Part shown: positions 23,397 to 40,636 of the stretch, piece after piece
Layout of the letters: each line of letters starts with the position of its first letter
Numbering within the stretch: position 1 is the first letter of the stretch
IMG/VR virus record: IMGVR_UViG_3300045391_001310
Location: 1 to 45,642 of that record
DNA from: a virus
Reading direction: 5' to 3' (one strand)
Length of the DNA stretch: 45,642 nucleotides
Made by a program: the position numbers and the translations under genes
The notes under the pieces: model-generated
Seen by the model: the letters and a program-made list of their open reading frames with translations, nothing else
What the model was told of the DNA's origin: nothing
Database searches by the model: none

Positions 23397-23540
23397 TTAT
23401 TTTTTTGGGTTAATTATTTTACTTTCAAAAAAATCAATTAATACCGAAAGCTGTCCTTGTATTGTTCTCTTTTGTTGTTTACAAATCTTCGTTATTCTTT
23501 CATAATCTTCGTCGGAAATTCTTATCGTTTTGCTACTCAT
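23397..23540 (-). CDS. Ribbon-helix-helix (CopG/Arc-like) regulator (47 aa), not in the ORF track
   Basis: Hand translation gives MSSKTIRISDEDYERITKICKQQKRTIQGQLSVLIDFFESKIINPKK, which has a beta-strand then two-helix pattern. Confidence 0.55.
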   Translation of the reverse strand: MSSKTIRISDEDYERITKICKQQKRTIQGQLSVLIDFFESKIINPKK

Positions 23541-23577
23541 GAGTTATCCTTTCTTTGATTTCTAAAGGATTGTAACA

Positions 23578-24522
23578 TTAATTTGCTTTTGTGTCAAGTT
23601 TATTATTTTCATATTCCATTATCCATTTCCCGATAACATACGTTGAGCAAGGTGTTTGGCCGTTTCCGAGCATTTTAAGTCTGTGTATCCTATGGGTAAT
23701 CCCATTAGCCACTCGACCCACTCTGGATTCAACTGACCACCAATTTTTAAAGGGATTGATTTCCCATCCACACATTCTTTCAAGCCTTGAGTCTGTGGTG
23801 TCGGCCATAATCCTGCTTCCACCATTGCTACTTGATTGTTTATATGTAGAGGTAGCCCCTTCTTGTATCTCCTCTGAATATTTTTCACTTTCATTGCTCC
23901 TCTTGTGCAACTCGCATCTGGTGTTCTCCATAGGTGCATATTGCTCACTTGGTCTCTTAAATTCGCTGGTTTGCTTCTTCCTTTCCGAGAGACTTCCGCT
24001 TCTTTCTTCAATGCTTTCTCGCTTTTTGGTGGCAAGCTGTCCATCGTGTTTGGAGTAGCAAACAATCCAAAGGCGCTCTCTTTTGTGCCACGCTCCGAGT
24101 GAGTGAGATGAAAATACAATCGGCCAGCAGATGTAACCTTCACCCTCCAAATCAAATAATACAGTGTCGAGATAAATAGGGATGATACCAGGAACATTTT
24201 CGCAAATGACCCATCTCGGTTTAACATCTTTAATGATTCTAAACATCTCTGGCCAGAGGTTACGGTCATCGTCTTTTCCATTTTGCTTTCCTGCAACGGA
24301 AAAAGGCTGGCATGGAAATCCACCTGTGATGATGTCAACTTTTTTAAGCTCTTTGCCATTTAATTCCTTTATGTTTCTATATTTATTTGAATCGGGATAA
24401 CGTAACTCTAAAATCTTCTGACAATATTCATCAATCTCACATTGCCAAGAAATTTCCATACCAGCCATAAGAAAACCAAAATCTCCTAATCCACCACCAG
24501 AAAATAAACTTCCTATATTCAT
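23578..24522 (-). CDS. dcm: DNA (cytosine-5)-methyltransferase (frame A, 314 aa)
   Basis: The motifs are: I FSGGGLGDFG, IV GGFPCQPFS, VI ENVPG, VIII HKRERLWIV, and the C-terminal WWSVESRVGRVANG..RLKMLGNGQTP. The ATG is at 24522; the track start at 24540 is a TTG. Confidence 0.9.
   Translation of the reverse strand: MNIGSLFSGGGLGDFGFLMAGMEISWQCEIDEYCQKILELRYPDSNKYRNIKELNGKELKKVDIITGGFPCQPFSVAGKQNGKDDDRNLWPEMFRIIKDVKPRWVICENVPGIIPIYLDTVLFDLEGEGYICWPIVFSSHSLGAWHKRERLWIVCYSKHDGQLATKKRESIEERSGSLSERKKQTSEFKRPSEQYAPMENTRCELHKRSNESEKYSEEIQEGATSTYKQSSSNGGSRIMADTTDSRLERMCGWEINPFKNWWSVESRVGRVANGITHRIHRLKMLGNGQTPCSTYVIGKWIMEYENNKLDTKAN
23619..24359 (-). CDS. Nested +1-frame ORF (frame B, 246 aa) that reads like an MTase target-recognition / motif-IX region
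   Basis: It has its own ATG, preceded by AAGGA. It contains LFATPNTMD, LWRTPDAS, LWPTPQTQGLKEC and LNPEWVEWLMGLPIGYTDL..SET, and ends RMLSGNG. It lies entirely inside frame A. Confidence 0.4.
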   Translation of the reverse strand: MAKSLKKLTSSQVDFHASLFPLQESKMEKTMTVTSGQRCLESLKMLNRDGSFAKMFLVSSLFISTLYYLIWRVKVTSAGRLYFHLTHSERGTKESAFGLFATPNTMDSLPPKSEKALKKEAEVSRKGRSKPANLRDQVSNMHLWRTPDASCTRGAMKVKNIQRRYKKGLPLHINNQVAMVEAGLWPTPQTQGLKECVDGKSIPLKIGGQLNPEWVEWLMGLPIGYTDLKCSETAKHLAQRMLSGNG

Positions 24523-24524
24523 TT

Positions 24525-24764
24525 TTAAATTAATCTCCAAACATCTTCCCTTGTTTCTCCATACCCACGGAATCTTTTTTCTTGATCAGTTAATCTTCTT
24601 ATCTTCCCTTCCTGTCCTAACTGTCTGCATATCCTATCTGCTGTATTACAGTAGATACTTGTACCAAAGGCAATAACCTCGCTTGTTCGTGCGAATTCTT
24701 TTTCTTTTAGCCAAACTTCTATTTGTTCTTTTTTAGATAGTTTGTTGGCGTAAAGTTCTAGCAT
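24525..24764 (-). CDS. Small winged-helix-like protein (79 aa)
   Basis: The ATG at 24764 is preceded by a perfect AAGGAGG. Confidence 0.5.
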   Translation of the reverse strand: MLELYANKLSKKEQIEVWLKEKEFARTSEVIAFGTSIYCNTADRICRQLGQEGKIRRLTDQEKRFRGYGETREDVWRLI

Positions 24765-39823: not shown

Positions 39824-40636
39824 ATGGCAAACCCATGGGATTTTTCAACACCAGTATGGTTAACAGAATGTCACGACTTACCGACATTCGTTGGTTCAGA
39901 ATGTCCATGGAATACAAATTGCAACGATTATCCAGATTTTGTTGGATCGGCTTGTGGTGGCGGTTCAACATCATCTATAACTTTAGCCGAATTGGACAAT
40001 CCAGTCGAAGGATTGGTTACAGTATTTGCAACAGTCGTAGAAGTAACTTGTATTCAATATTACATAGATGGGATAGCAGTAGGTGGGCCATTTTATGATC
40101 CTTGGGATTTATTATTTGACACACATGAATATGAATCTGGAACGCATACAATATATGCTAAAAGTTGTGATGGTACGGTTACATCTAATACGATTAACGC
40201 TATTATCGTATCTACAGCAGTTTCTAGGCATACAGGTGATAAGCCACAGGATAAAGGACAGCAAAGAGAATGTATCGTTTGCGGATTTTGGTTTCCTGAG
40301 CGTGATTTTAGAATTCGTCAGAAAGATAAGCAATGGATTTGTAAGTGGGATTATGATGAAGTATCGGAGGATGATTCTCACGGTACAGTTGAGATTCATT
40401 TACTTAAAGGTCAGATGCGTAATTGCTCTATTTGTGATTTTTGGTTTGCTGAAAGAGATTATCGAATTCGTAAAGTTAGAAACAAATGGCTTTGTAAATG
40501 GTGTGAAGAATCTCAATATTATGATGATGACGAAGGTATCCCAGGAGACAATGTTGATTATTTACAACTCGAAGATGAAGATTCCTATTTGCTTGAAGAT
40601 GGAGGAAAGATAATCCTTGAAGATGACACTGAGTAA
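39824..40636 (+). CDS. Virion-module protein with an Ig-like domain, two duplicated CxxC..CKW zinc-ribbon-like units and an acidic tail
   Basis: The two units are RECIVCGFWFPERDFRIRQKDKQWICKW and RNCSICDFWFAERDYRIRKVRNKWLCKWC. The C-terminus is DYLQLEDEDSYLLEDGGKIILEDDTE. Confidence 0.55.
   Translation: MANPWDFSTPVWLTECHDLPTFVGSECPWNTNCNDYPDFVGSACGGGSTSSITLAELDNPVEGLVTVFATVVEVTCIQYYIDGIAVGGPFYDPWDLLFDTHEYESGTHTIYAKSCDGTVTSNTINAIIVSTAVSRHTGDKPQDKGQQRECIVCGFWFPERDFRIRQKDKQWICKWDYDEVSEDDSHGTVEIHLLKGQMRNCSICDFWFAERDYRIRKVRNKWLCKWCEESQYYDDDEGIPGDNVDYLQLEDEDSYLLEDGGKIILEDDTE

What the first reader, a model, noticed from the sequence alone, without database searches (positions are those of the whole stretch)
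23578..24540. Two long same-strand overlapping reading frames in the C5-methyltransferase locus, both protein-like
**Frame A** (24522 to 23578, 314 aa) is a complete short C5-MTase. It has FSGGGLGDFG, GGFPCQPFS, ENVPG, HKRERLWIV, then WWSVESRVGRVANG..RLKMLGNGQTP.

**Frame B** (24359 to 23619, 246 aa) is +1 relative to A and lies completely inside it. It has its own ATG preceded by AAGGA. It still reads like real protein:
- three hydrophobic-x-TP loops (LFATPNTMD, LWRTPDAS, LWPTPQTQGLKEC);
- LNPEWVEWLMGLPIGYTDL..SET;
- an ending of RMLSGNG.

I recognise these strings, from memory and not from a search, as the variable/target-recognition and motif-IX-like C-terminal part of another group of phage- and Bacteroidetes-type C5 MTases.

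A stop-free run of 246 off-frame codons is well beyond the 60-100-codon off-frame ORFs that dominate the rest of this AT-rich window; only 40083..40613 (176 codons) comes close. The opposite strand is also open for 155 codons (23591..24058), so stop codons are depleted in several frames at once.

Possible explanations:
- a genuinely overprinted gene pair, i.e. a catalytic MTase plus a nested TRD-like subunit (split two-subunit C5 MTases such as M.AquI are a precedent);
- a +1 frameshift after motif VIII that yields a second MTase isoform with a different specificity domain;
- a relic of one MTase type converted into the other by frameshift.
Basis: partly seen in the sequence, partly recalled or inferred. 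Interest (0 to 1): 0.88.

Follow-up and report, generated by a model that had tools for sequence, protein, structure and literature searches.

The report
Nested two-subunit phage cytosine methyltransferase gene
One stretch of phage DNA is read in two frames to make the two halves of a DNA cytosine methyltransferase (a catalytic subunit and, nested inside its gene, a DNA-recognition subunit); this layout was shown experimentally for one E. coli enzyme in 1995 and turns out to be the rule for a very large phage and prophage family.

Summary
Frame A (24522→23578, 314 aa) and the nested +1 frame B (24359→23619, 246 aa) are both open, and far beyond chance: P(B open | A protein) = 8e-8, and P(A open across B's core | B protein) = 2e-6.

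Frame A is not a complete methyltransferase. It carries motifs I–VIII and X, the catalytic "large domain". Residues 161–274 between them are unconserved and predicted disordered.

Frame B carries the conserved variable/target-recognition-like region and a motif-IX-like segment. It has its own ATG with an AAGGA ribosome-binding site.

Across about 130 related loci:
- Selection follows A through motif VIII, switches to B through the recognition region and IX, then returns to A for X.
- Both ORFs still stay open over their full length.
- The part of B that overlaps A's motifs IV–VIII shows excess synonymous constraint.

This fits two separately translated polypeptides, not a frameshift product.

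The closest precedent is M.EcoHK31I (β encoded inside α in another frame, both needed). Some relatives are split like M.AquI.

The arrangement was found in 79/79 α-selected viral loci and 66/68 analysable bacterial-genome loci, and the β profile matches more than 21,000 protein clusters.

Verdict: a real overlapping gene pair, a new member of a known but obscure kind, whose prevalence seems unrecognised.

The parts
23578..24522 (-). alpha ORF (frame A), 314 aa plus stop: the catalytic large-domain subunit of a C5 cytosine DNA methyltransferase
   Evidence: ORF list. Pfam PF00145 E=3.4e-42 and TIGR00675. phrog_363 E=5e-62. AF2 model confident for residues 1-160 and 278-313. Foldseek matches M.HhaI/M.HaeIII over about 165 columns at 2.2-2.7 A.
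23619..24359 (-). beta ORF (frame B, +1 of alpha), 246 aa plus stop: nested subunit with an N-terminal extension, a recognition region and a motif-IX-like segment
   Evidence: ORF list. 956 homologues at E<=1e-3. Profile search: 39,214 representative clusters at E<=1e-3 and 21,312 at E<=1e-10. phrog_1008 E=3.5e-26. P(open|alpha)=8e-8.
24365..24369 (-). Shine-Dalgarno-like AAGGA, 5 nt upstream of the beta ATG (24359..24357)
   Evidence: Sequence. In relatives, a frame-B ATG/GTG between the upstream stop and motif IV (typically 26-62 nt upstream of it) carries an SD of at least 5 nt in 36/65 loci, against 5% for control ATG/GTG. For SD of at least 4 nt the figures are 54/65 against 22%.
24475..24504 (-). 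alpha motif I (FSGGGLGDFG, AdoMet binding)
   Evidence: Invariant G9, G11, G13, D14, G16 in 40 homologues; coordinates.
24298..24324 (-). alpha motif IV (GGFPCQPFS, catalytic Cys71); read in beta as VDFHASLFP
   Evidence: Invariant G67, G68, F69, P70, C71, Q72; two-frame listing.
24187..24201 (-). alpha motif VI (ENVPG); read in beta as KMFLV
   Evidence: Invariant E108, N109, V110.
24061..24087 (-). alpha motif VIII (HKRERLWIV); the selected frame switches from alpha to beta just after it
   Evidence: Invariant H146, R148, R150, W152; codon-position entropies.
24099..24161 (-). core of true dual coding: beta residues 67-87 (YYLIWRVKVTSAGRLYFHLTH, predicted beta-hairpin) over the alpha region between motifs VI and VIII (about residues 121-142)
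   Evidence: This is the strongest synonymous-site constraint within the N-extension: a3 entropy observed/null is about 0.1-0.6 per column. The regional ratio is 0.72 against 0.95 in the alpha-only control, using alpha-selected loci. AF2 hairpin 68-88 has pLDDT 74-82.
23701..24042 (-). alpha linker (residues 161-274): hydrophilic, unconserved, predicted disordered; kept open so that alpha reaches motif X
   Evidence: No consensus across about 110 columns in 40 homologues. pLDDT 36-44. The first codon position is the most variable, so alpha is the passenger frame here. P(open|beta)=1.9e-6.
23946..24059 (-). beta conserved block, residues 101-138 (ATPNTMDSLPPKS...RKGRSKPANLRDQV)
   Evidence: Nearly invariant P103, N104, T105, D107, P110, S113, R125, G127, R128, P131, N133, L134, R135, V138 in 39 sequences. 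The beta third position is the most variable, at 1.64 bits.
23742..23945 (-). beta variable region with hydrophobic-x-TP repeats (LWRTPDAS, LWPTPQTQ); repeat number and length vary among relatives
   Evidence: Alignment A1; relatives with 2 to 8 repeats.
23673..23741 (-). beta motif-IX-like segment (GGQLNPEWVEWLMGLPIGYTDLK); read in alpha as WWSVESRVGRVANGITHRIHRLK
   Evidence: Invariant N211, V215, E216, M219, G220, P222. The only hhalign hit to M.HhaI is its motif IX (residues 272-290), E=0.15. Synonymous-site ratio 0.51.
23650..23691 (-). alpha motif X with its preceding helix (RIHRLKMLGNGQTP)
   Evidence: Invariant R281, L282, G286, N287, G288. AF2 helices 278-285 and 291-313. Synonymous constraint returns to control level here, ratio 0.94.
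23622..23672 (-). beta C-terminal tail (CSETAKHLAQRMLSGNG): not conserved, and the stop position varies among relatives
   Evidence: Alignment A1; observed entropy about equal to null.

Best explanation
The locus encodes a heterodimeric C5 cytosine DNA methyltransferase from two same-strand overlapping genes.

**Alpha (frame A, 314 aa).** It supplies the whole catalytic/AdoMet 'large domain': motifs I–VIII plus motif X. In place of the usual small domain it has a ~110-residue disordered linker. The linker's amino-acid sequence is not selected, but its reading frame is kept open.

**Beta (frame B, 246 aa).** It is translated independently from its own AAGGA-N5-ATG, which lies just upstream of alpha's motif IV. 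It supplies what alpha lacks: the variable/target-recognition region (a conserved block plus variable hydrophobic-x-TP repeats) and motif IX. Together these are the 'small domain'. Its ~100-residue N-terminal extension is overprinted on alpha's motifs IV–VIII and probably helps dock beta onto alpha. In M.EcoHK31I, the N-terminus of beta is needed for association.

**Role.** The phage most likely uses the enzyme as an orphan methylase to protect its DNA from host restriction.

**Shown here:** both ORFs are conserved and open well beyond chance; the selected frame switches A→B→A; there is excess synonymous constraint in the overlap; the internal start signal is conserved; alpha has the large-domain fold and a disordered linker.

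**Inferred:** separate translation, heterodimer formation, the role of the N-extension, the specificity role of the repeats, and the biological purpose.
For: **1. Chance is excluded.** In the window, P(B open|A) = 8e-8 and P(A open|B) = 1.9e-6. Every one of about 70 divergent loci gives 5.9e-2 to 3e-9 for each test, nearly all below 2e-2.

**2. The arrangement is general, and this does not depend on how loci were chosen.**
- In 79/79 viral loci chosen by alpha similarity, the +1 ORF is at least 166 codons and opens 26–260 nt upstream of motif IV. The +2 frame there is open for only about 9 codons in the median.
- 66/68 analysable bacterial-genome loci, from many phyla, have the same layout.
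- About 70/80 loci chosen by beta similarity have it too.

**3. The selected frame switches.** Entropy of codon positions 1/2/3:
- alpha-only N-terminus: 1.01/0.84/1.63;
- recognition region read in the beta frame: 1.24/1.14/1.64, with alpha as the passenger;
- motif IX read in beta: 0.52/0.52/1.09.
After 'GYTDLK', constraint returns to alpha only.

**4. Synonymous sites of alpha are constrained in the overlap.** Wobble entropy, observed/null, in alpha-selected loci: 0.95 in the control, 0.84 over beta 1–60, 0.72 over beta 61–100, 0.51 over IX, 0.94 after IX. A beta-selected set gives the same picture.

**5. The internal start is conserved.** SD of at least 5 nt at the frame-B ATG/GTG in 36/65 loci against a 5% background.

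**6. Structure predictions fit.** Alpha residues 1–160 and 278–313 are confident and match the M.HhaI/M.HaeIII large domain. Residues 161–274 have pLDDT below 45. The alpha family has no consensus across the linker, whereas the beta family is strongly conserved there.

**7. Relatives carry the same parts in other partitions.**
- L004: alpha stops right after motif VIII, and beta carries the recognition region, IX and X in one frame.
- L005: motif X is in beta.

**8. There is an experimental precedent.** M.EcoHK31I beta is encoded entirely within alpha in another frame, both polypeptides are required, and beta's N-terminus is needed for association (PMC2836561; PMC3404938).

**9. Annotators have already called the nested ORF.** Paenibacillus larvae phage records list it as a second gene, e.g. 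'g55 internal gene'.
Against: - There is no expression, proteomic or activity data for this locus or any close relative.
- The AF2 model of beta alone is poor: mean pLDDT 56, with residues 1–62 below 50.
- Motif IX in beta is not statistically established. Pfam does not extend into it in fused constructs, and hhalign to M.HhaI gives E=0.15.
- The beta profile has no relative of solved structure.
- The M.EcoHK31I sequence could not be obtained, so homology to the precedent is untested.
- The published description places the predicted TRD of M.EcoHK31I in alpha. Here the conserved recognition-like region is in beta.
- A few database relatives (P0029, P0116, P0216) have the two frames fused by single-base differences. 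This could hint at frameshift-tolerant expression rather than errors.
- The synonymous-constraint null ignores phylogeny. It is controlled only by the alpha-only regions of the same alignment.
Confidence: 0.75

Rival explanations
1. A single-chain methyltransferase is made by programmed recoding. Ribosomes start in frame A, shift +1 after motif VIII into frame B (recognition region and IX), and shift -1 at the A-run in 'TTA AAA TGC' back into frame A for motif X. The result would be a canonical I–VIII / TRD / IX / X polypeptide of about 314 aa.
For: The frame under selection switches at exactly these two points. Both junctions lie at short homopolymers, GTTTG and TTAAAAT. In L004 a single +1 shift would give a canonical enzyme. 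Fused-frame variants exist in databases.
Against: A frameshift product needs neither frame A to be open for the ~110 codons after the first junction nor frame B to be open for ~100 codons before it. Yet both are held open in essentially all relatives. Frame B also has a conserved ATG with an SD, and its N-extension shows synonymous constraint. In the window, motif IX in B and the helix before motif X in A use the same nucleotides, so one chain cannot contain both complete. There is no zero-frame stop or known slippery heptamer at the first junction. Pfam scores the hypothetical chimera no better than frame A alone, 139.6 against 145.5 bits. In the experimental precedent the two polypeptides are separate.
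Confidence: 0.08
2. Alpha alone is the working methylase, a minimal enzyme with a degenerate variable region. Beta is a real but separate protein, for example a modulator of specificity or activity or an unrelated phage factor, that happens to be overprinted on the gene.
For: Alpha is a full-length ORF with every catalytic and cofactor motif. Short alpha relatives of 241-245 aa exist that seem to lack the IX-shadow (P0209, P0213, P0223). The beta model is poorly folded on its own.
Against: Alpha lacks any conserved or structured variable region and lacks motif IX. In known C5 enzymes these form the DNA-recognising small domain (PMC3404938). Beta's best and only match to M.HhaI is motif IX. In L004- and L005-type relatives beta also carries motif X, so there it must be part of the enzyme. 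M.EcoHK31I needs both chains.
Confidence: 0.1
3. Frame B is an untranslated shadow ORF, kept open only by amino-acid and codon composition of the methylase gene. The 'homologues' are gene-caller artefacts.
For: Pfam and NCBIfam have no family for B. Many conserved residues in B's N-extension are arithmetic shadows of alpha motifs: GGFPCQ↔VDFHAS, ENV↔KMF, W90↔G36.
Against: With alpha's protein and codon usage fixed, 11.3 stops are expected in B. In the recognition region the wobble position of B, not of A, is the variable one, and A has no consensus there. The start signal is conserved. B residues such as W71 require one particular synonymous Leu codon in alpha in all 39 aligned sequences.
Confidence: 0.02

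Closest known systems
M.EcoHK31I (E. coli HK31, YGGCCR), a two-polypeptide C5 methyltransferase (Lee, Kam & Shaw 1995, as described in PMC2836561 and PMC3404938)
   Same: Beta is encoded entirely inside the alpha gene in a different reading frame. [quoted passage not shown] Both are needed for activity, and beta's N-terminal part is needed for association. Alpha is of nearly the same size (309 aa by my recollection, against 314 aa here).
   Different: Published accounts place the predicted TRD in alpha. Here the alpha variable region is unconserved and disordered, and the conserved recognition-like region is in beta. Beta here is longer (246 aa, against about 176 aa by my recollection). M.EcoHK31I belongs to a restriction-modification system, whereas this one is a phage gene with no nuclease seen nearby.
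M.AquI (CYCGRG), a two-subunit C5 methyltransferase (Karreman & de Waard 1990, as described in PMC3404938)
   Same: A natural split of a C5 methylase within the variable region into two polypeptides. Relatives of this locus (L004/P0026) have exactly this partition: alpha = I–VIII, beta = rest of the variable region + IX + X.
   Different: In the window motif X stays in alpha, and beta is fully nested rather than following alpha.
Monomeric C5 methyltransferases M.HhaI and M.HaeIII (PDB 1HMY, 2UZ4, 1DCT)
   Same: Alpha's predicted fold superposes on their large domain over about 165 columns at 2.2-2.7 A. Beta residues 208-226 align with M.HhaI motif IX with identical spacing, LxPxExxxxMGxPxxY.
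   Different: In those enzymes one chain carries I–VIII, TRD, IX and X in a single frame.
Paenibacillus larvae Fernvirus phages (Bloom gp56/gp57, Shelly gp55/gp56 'g55 internal gene'); PHROG families phrog_363 and phrog_1008
   Same: The same nested +1 ORF inside a 345-351 aa cytosine methylase, about 33% identical to frame B. Both ORFs are annotated in some records.
   Different: Motif X follows the IX-shadow after a spacer, 129 nt from the start of IX instead of 42 nt. The genomics paper on these phages (PMC6070908) lists two methyltransferase genes but does not discuss the overlap.

Membership tests
C5 cytosine DNA methyltransferase (Pfam PF00145 / TIGR00675) | Motifs I (FxGxG), IV (PCQ, catalytic Cys), VI (ENV) and VIII (QxRxR-type) in order, with a significant profile match | tested here: met
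   Frame A: PF00145 at 145.5 bits (cut-off 22), E=3.4e-42. TIGR00675 at 120.3 bits (cut-off 100.65). Motif residues are invariant in 40 homologues.
C5 cytosine DNA methyltransferase (Pfam PF00145 / TIGR00675) | Variable region (TRD), motif IX and motif X in the same polypeptide | tested here: not met
   The Pfam match of frame A covers only profile positions 1-233 of 324. Residues 161-274 are unconserved and disordered. Motif X is present (R281, L282, G286, N287, G288), but the IX-like segment lies in frame B.
M.EcoHK31I-type nested two-polypeptide C5 methyltransferase | The second ORF lies entirely within the methylase ORF, on the same strand, in a different frame | tested here: met
   Frame B 23619..24359 lies inside frame A 23578..24522, offset +1. 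Conserved in 79/79 and 66/68 loci.
M.EcoHK31I-type nested two-polypeptide C5 methyltransferase | The large chain holds motifs I–VIII and X | tested here: met
M.EcoHK31I-type nested two-polypeptide C5 methyltransferase | The small chain holds motif IX | tested here: inconclusive
   The only hhalign hit of the B-family profile on M.HhaI is its motif IX (B 208-226 against HhaI 272-290), but E=0.15. Pfam does not reach IX in fused constructs. The position between the variable region and X in single-frame relatives (P0026, P0074) is as expected.
M.EcoHK31I-type nested two-polypeptide C5 methyltransferase | The predicted TRD is located in the large chain (as published) | tested here: not met
   The alpha variable region has no consensus and pLDDT below 45. 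The conserved region is read in frame B, with b3 the most variable position. The published assignment was itself a prediction.
M.EcoHK31I-type nested two-polypeptide C5 methyltransferase | Both polypeptides are made and both are required for methylation | not testable with these tools
   Only indirect support is available: the conserved ATG with SD, both ORFs held open and synonymous constraint.
M.EcoHK31I-type nested two-polypeptide C5 methyltransferase | Sequence homology to M.EcoHK31I alpha and beta | not tested
M.AquI-type split C5 methyltransferase | alpha = I–VIII (plus part of the variable region); beta = rest of the variable region + IX + X | tested here: not met
   In the window motif X is in alpha. 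The feature is met in the relative L004, and partly in L005.
Programmed ribosomal frameshift gene | The zero frame closes soon after the shift site, the new frame need not be open before it, and there is a recognisable slippery or stall site | tested here: not met
   Frame A stays open about 160 codons past the junction, and frame B is open about 100 codons before it, both under selection. There is no stop or canonical slippery heptamer at the junction.

The most novel reading that the evidence does not exclude
The nested alpha/beta layout may be the standard architecture of a very large family of phage and prophage C5 methyltransferases, not a curiosity of one E. coli enzyme.

- The beta profile matches more than 21,000 clusters (at 50% identity).
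- Loci occur in Bacillota, Bacteroidota, Proteobacteria, Verrucomicrobiota, Actinomycetota, Chloroflexota, Planctomycetota, Spirochaetota and other phyla, and in coliphage N15.
- These genes are almost universally annotated as single-chain enzymes.

In this reading DNA recognition resides in the nested beta chain, contrary to the published assignment for M.EcoHK31I. About 100 codons, spanning alpha motifs IV–VIII and the beta N-terminal domain, are genuinely dual-coding. That would make this one of the longest and most widespread same-strand overlapping gene pairs known in bacteria and their viruses, with beta's N-terminal domain born by overprinting.
Probability: 0.55. Interest if true: 0.75.

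Novelty: new member of a known kind. Interest (0 to 1): 0.6.

Why it matters
**Annotation.** Thousands of phage and prophage 'DNA cytosine methyltransferase' annotations would describe only half of an enzyme. The specificity-determining half would be hidden in an unannotated +1 ORF, or listed as a hypothetical protein. This affects prediction of methylation specificity, REBASE-style cataloguing, interpretation of phage anti-restriction, and any attempt to express these enzymes from the annotated ORF alone.

**Overlapping genes.** The family offers a deep, multi-phylum natural data set of a ~740-nt same-strand overlap. It contains clearly separable zones: alpha-only, beta-only, truly dual, and 'open but unselected'.

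**Protein engineering.** A natural split of the large and small domains, with a swappable recognition subunit, is the kind of scaffold that was sought when M.EcoHK31I was used for targeted methylation (PMC2836561).

Tried and rejected
- **blastn ('distant') of the locus against phage genomes** gave only short matches of 6-11% of the query, so no close DNA relative was found.
- **Pfam and NCBIfam on frame B:** no hit.
- **Pfam on hypothetical chimeras** (window A1-154 + B101-229 + A284-314, and an L004 chimera): the match did not extend into IX or X and scored no better than frame A alone. This gives no support for a single-chain reading and no proof of motif IX.
- **B-family profile against PDB sequences:** nothing at E<=1.
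- **AF2 of beta alone:** too low in confidence for a fold search, so none was run on it.
- **The original M.EcoHK31I paper and the supplement of PMC2836561** are not held, so direct comparison with the precedent was impossible.
- **Three further literature searches** for descriptions of nested or overlapping methylase genes in phages found nothing relevant. The Paenibacillus phage genomics paper does not discuss the overlap.
- **Technical failures:** a first Monte-Carlo shuffle timed out and was replaced by an exact dynamic-programming calculation. One script failed on an over-strict motif-I pattern.
- **Corrected assumption:** my first guess about the antisense frame was wrong and was corrected.
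- **Possible selection bias:** the beta-selected loci might have inflated the synonymous constraint, so the analysis was repeated on alpha-selected loci, with the same result.
- **Antisense 155-aa ORF rejected as a gene:** the same frame is open for at least 120 codons in only 14/65 relatives.
Full report
**1. The observation**

The window is a whole 45,642-bp JGI contig. It is a phage: a large terminase subunit, a replisome organiser and an exonuclease lie around the locus, and GC is about 33%.

On the minus strand the ORF list shows:
- frame A, 23578..24540 (320 aa from a TTG; 314 aa from the ATG at 24522, which matches homologue N-termini);
- frame B, 23619..24359 (246 aa), offset +1 and entirely inside A.

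AAGGA lies 5 nt before B's ATG.

I tested chance with an exact calculation. One protein is held fixed, synonymous codons are redrawn from the window's own codon usage, and the probability that the other frame stays stop-free is computed.
- Frame B should contain 11.3 stops. P(open) = 8.2e-8.
- Frame A should contain 8.9 stops across 92 codons of B's core. P(open) = 1.9e-6.

**2. What each frame encodes**

*Frame A.*
- It matches Pfam PF00145 (E=3.4e-42), but only over profile positions 1-233 of 324. It also matches TIGR00675 and phrog_363.
- Forty homologues share invariant residues of motifs I, IV, VI and VIII and of motif X (R281, L282, G286, N287, G288). They have no consensus at all over about 110 columns between VIII and X.
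- AlphaFold2 with that alignment gives a confident model for residues 1-160 and 278-313, with pLDDT 36-44 for 161-274.
- The confident part superposes on the large domain of M.HhaI and M.HaeIII.
- Frame A is therefore the catalytic large domain interrupted by a disordered linker. It is not a complete enzyme.

*Frame B.*
- It has no Pfam or NCBIfam family. It has 956 homologues in the 5.8-billion-protein collection, matches phrog_1008 'DNA methyltransferase', and as a profile finds 39,214 clusters at E<=1e-3 and 21,312 at E<=1e-10.
- Its alignment is strongly protein-like: a nearly invariant block WATPNTMDxLPxRSxEALxRQAxxxRKGRxxPANLREQV, a variable number of hydrophobic-x-TP repeats, and GGQLNPxWVEWLMGxPIGWTDL.
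- That last segment aligns with motif IX of M.HhaI with identical spacing. It is the only hhalign hit, though at E=0.15.
- AlphaFold2 of B alone is weak (mean pLDDT 56). It is confident only for a hairpin at residues 68-88, a helix at 114-122, and the IX region.

**3. Relatives**

*Annotated phages.* Paenibacillus larvae phages, about 33% identical in B, annotate both a 345-351 aa methylase and a nested 234 aa ORF, called 'g55 internal gene' in one record. Coliphage N15 gp58 and an Acinetobacter phage methylase contain the same +1 ORF without annotation.

*Viral contigs chosen by B.* An IMG/VR scan with the B alignment found 584 relatives. In about 70 of the 80 loci fetched:
- A is complete;
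- B opens 35-240 nt upstream of motif IV;
- motif X sits in frame A, 42 nt after the start of IX in frame B, exactly as in the window.

*Viral contigs chosen by A.* Loci chosen through B could be biased, so I repeated the scan with the A alignment. In 79/79 loci with a recognisable motif IV, the +1 ORF at motif IV is at least 166 codons, against a median of about 9 codons in the +2 frame.

*Bacterial genomes.* In one genome per bacterial species there are more than 558 loci, from Bacillota, Bacteroidota, Proteobacteria, Verrucomicrobiota, Actinomycetes, Nitrospirota, Acidobacteria, Chloroflexota, Planctomycetota, Spirochaetota, Synergistota and others. 66/68 analysable loci have the same layout.

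*Openness in relatives.* Each relative gives 5.9e-2 to 3e-9 for either frame staying open, nearly all below 2e-2.

*Variants.*
- In L004 (P0026), A stops right after motif VIII, and B carries the recognition region, IX and X in one frame.
- In L005 (P0074), A runs through the linker but X is in B.

The same set of parts is therefore always present, partitioned between the two frames in a few different ways.

**4. Which frame is selected where**

*Codon-position entropy over 65 loci, positions 1/2/3.*
- Alpha-only N-terminus: 1.01/0.84/1.63. This is classical coding in A.
- Stretch overlapping B's N-terminal extension: 0.95/0.71/1.30. Still A-like, but with a damped wobble.
- Recognition region read in B: 1.24/1.14/1.64. 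This is classical coding in B, with A the passenger.
- Motif IX read in B: 0.52/0.52/1.09.

*Synonymous-site test.* I redrew A's synonymous codons under the condition that B stays open, and compared wobble entropy with the observed value. Observed/null is 0.93 in the alpha-only control, 0.78 over B's N-extension, 0.69 over the recognition region and 0.70 over IX.

*Per-column view.* The strongest constraint inside the extension falls on B residues about 65-90, the predicted hairpin, which overlaps alpha residues about 121-142. Constraint vanishes right after 'GYTDLK', where A's motif X takes over and B's tail is free.

*Control for selection bias.* On alpha-selected loci the ratios are 0.95 (control), 0.84 (B 1-60), 0.72 (B 61-100), 0.51 (IX) and 0.94 (after IX).

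*Start signal.* A frame-B ATG or GTG, typically 26-62 nt upstream of motif IV, is preceded by a Shine-Dalgarno match of at least 5 nt in 36/65 loci, against 5% for other ATG/GTG in the same genes.

**5. Mechanism**

Selection follows A (I–VIII), then B (recognition region and IX), then A (X). Either a double frameshift or two overlapping genes could produce that pattern.

What separates the two is the material that selection keeps open without selecting its sequence:
- A's linker is needed only if alpha is translated through to motif X.
- B's 100-codon extension, with its own ATG and SD and with partial amino-acid constraint, is needed only if beta starts near motif IV.

In the window the IX segment (in B) and the helix preceding X (in A) also use the same nucleotides, so no single chain could carry both complete.

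I therefore conclude, at confidence about 0.75, that two polypeptides are made:
- alpha, the large domain with a disordered linker;
- beta, an N-terminal docking extension plus the small domain (recognition region and IX).

In known structures the large domain is formed by I–VIII and X, and DNA-specific contacts come from the small domain (PMC3404938).

No restriction gene is evident nearby, so the enzyme is probably an orphan phage methylase. That last point is inference.

**6. Comparison with what is known**

Only two natural two-polypeptide C5 methylases are cited in the literature I could read: M.AquI and M.EcoHK31I (PMC3404938).

*M.EcoHK31I is the close precedent (PMC2836561).*
- Alpha holds I–VIII and X, and beta holds IX.
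- Both are required, and beta's N-terminus is needed for association.
- Removing beta start codons silently in alpha abolishes activity.

*Difference.* The TRD of M.EcoHK31I was predicted to be in alpha. Here the alpha variable region is unconserved and disordered, and the conserved recognition-like region is in beta. I could not obtain the M.EcoHK31I sequence, so I cannot say whether this is a real difference or an old misassignment.

*M.AquI.* L004-type relatives reproduce the M.AquI partition.

*Literature gap.* I found no paper in the held library describing this architecture as general for phage methylases.

**7. Verdict**

The locus itself is an ordinary member of its family, and the kind has had an experimental precedent since 1995. 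I therefore file it as a new member of a known kind.

What appears under-appreciated is:
- the scale of the family, tens of thousands of clusters across many phyla;
- the location of the recognition region in the nested chain;
- the roughly 100 codons of genuine dual coding.

Interest: 0.6.

Noticed in passing
window 40083..40613 (+), inside 39824..40636 (+): A second long nested +1 ORF (176 codons) lies inside a 270-aa acidic, Cys-repeat protein (motif C.(V/I)C.FWF.ERD.RIR occurs twice). With the host protein fixed, 6.6 stops are expected and P(open)=6e-5. The translation is rich in I, L, V, M and F and does not look obviously protein-like. No homology search was run.
   Followed up: partly
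window 23591..24058 (+): A 155-aa antisense ORF lies opposite the recognition region. In 65 relatives the same antisense frame is open for a median of 76 codons, and for at least 120 codons in only 14. It is a by-product of the doubly constrained sequence, not a conserved gene.
   Followed up: yes
L249 (P0116), junction just after motif IV (about L249:590-610); also P0029: In two divergent contigs one T is missing right after motif IV (..CAGCCCTTCCCGTTG.. instead of ..TTCTCCGTT..). This fuses alpha motifs I–IV in frame to the whole beta ORF. The rest of alpha (VI, VIII, X) continues open in the -1 frame. It could be a pseudogene, an assembly error or a lineage variant; this is unexplained.
   Followed up: partly
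P0216 (304 aa; contig not fetched): A relative in which the alpha frame runs into the beta frame in the middle of the recognition region, giving I–VIII + part of the linker + the beta C-terminus in one ORF. This is another single-base frame fusion.
   Followed up: no
P0209, P0213, P0223 (241-245 aa alpha relatives): These short alpha homologues have linkers that lack the 'EPxVGRVAxG' shadow of motif IX. They may have no nested beta, or a very different one.
   Followed up: no
L087 = Escherichia phage N15 AF064539.1 44546..45541 (gp58); L088 = Acinetobacter phage vB_AbaM_ABMM1 gp60: Both annotated single-chain cytosine methylases contain an unannotated +1 nested beta-like ORF. tblastn with frame B gives 28-34% identity.
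   Followed up: partly
window 23569..23597 (-): A strong sigma-70-like promoter match (TTGACA-17-TACAAT with an extended -10 TG, 11/12) lies within the last codons of the methylase gene, just upstream of the small ORF 23397..23540. The total number of promoter-like matches in the region does not exceed shuffled controls.
   Followed up: no
L192-L194, L197, L198 (one uncultured Roseovarius MAG chromosome, OX638333.1): Five loci on a single chromosome gave identical match statistics to the beta query (33% identity, residues 5-233, E=2e-28). This suggests a multi-copy prophage, a gene-transfer-agent-like element or a repeat element; the five sequences were not compared directly.
   Followed up: no
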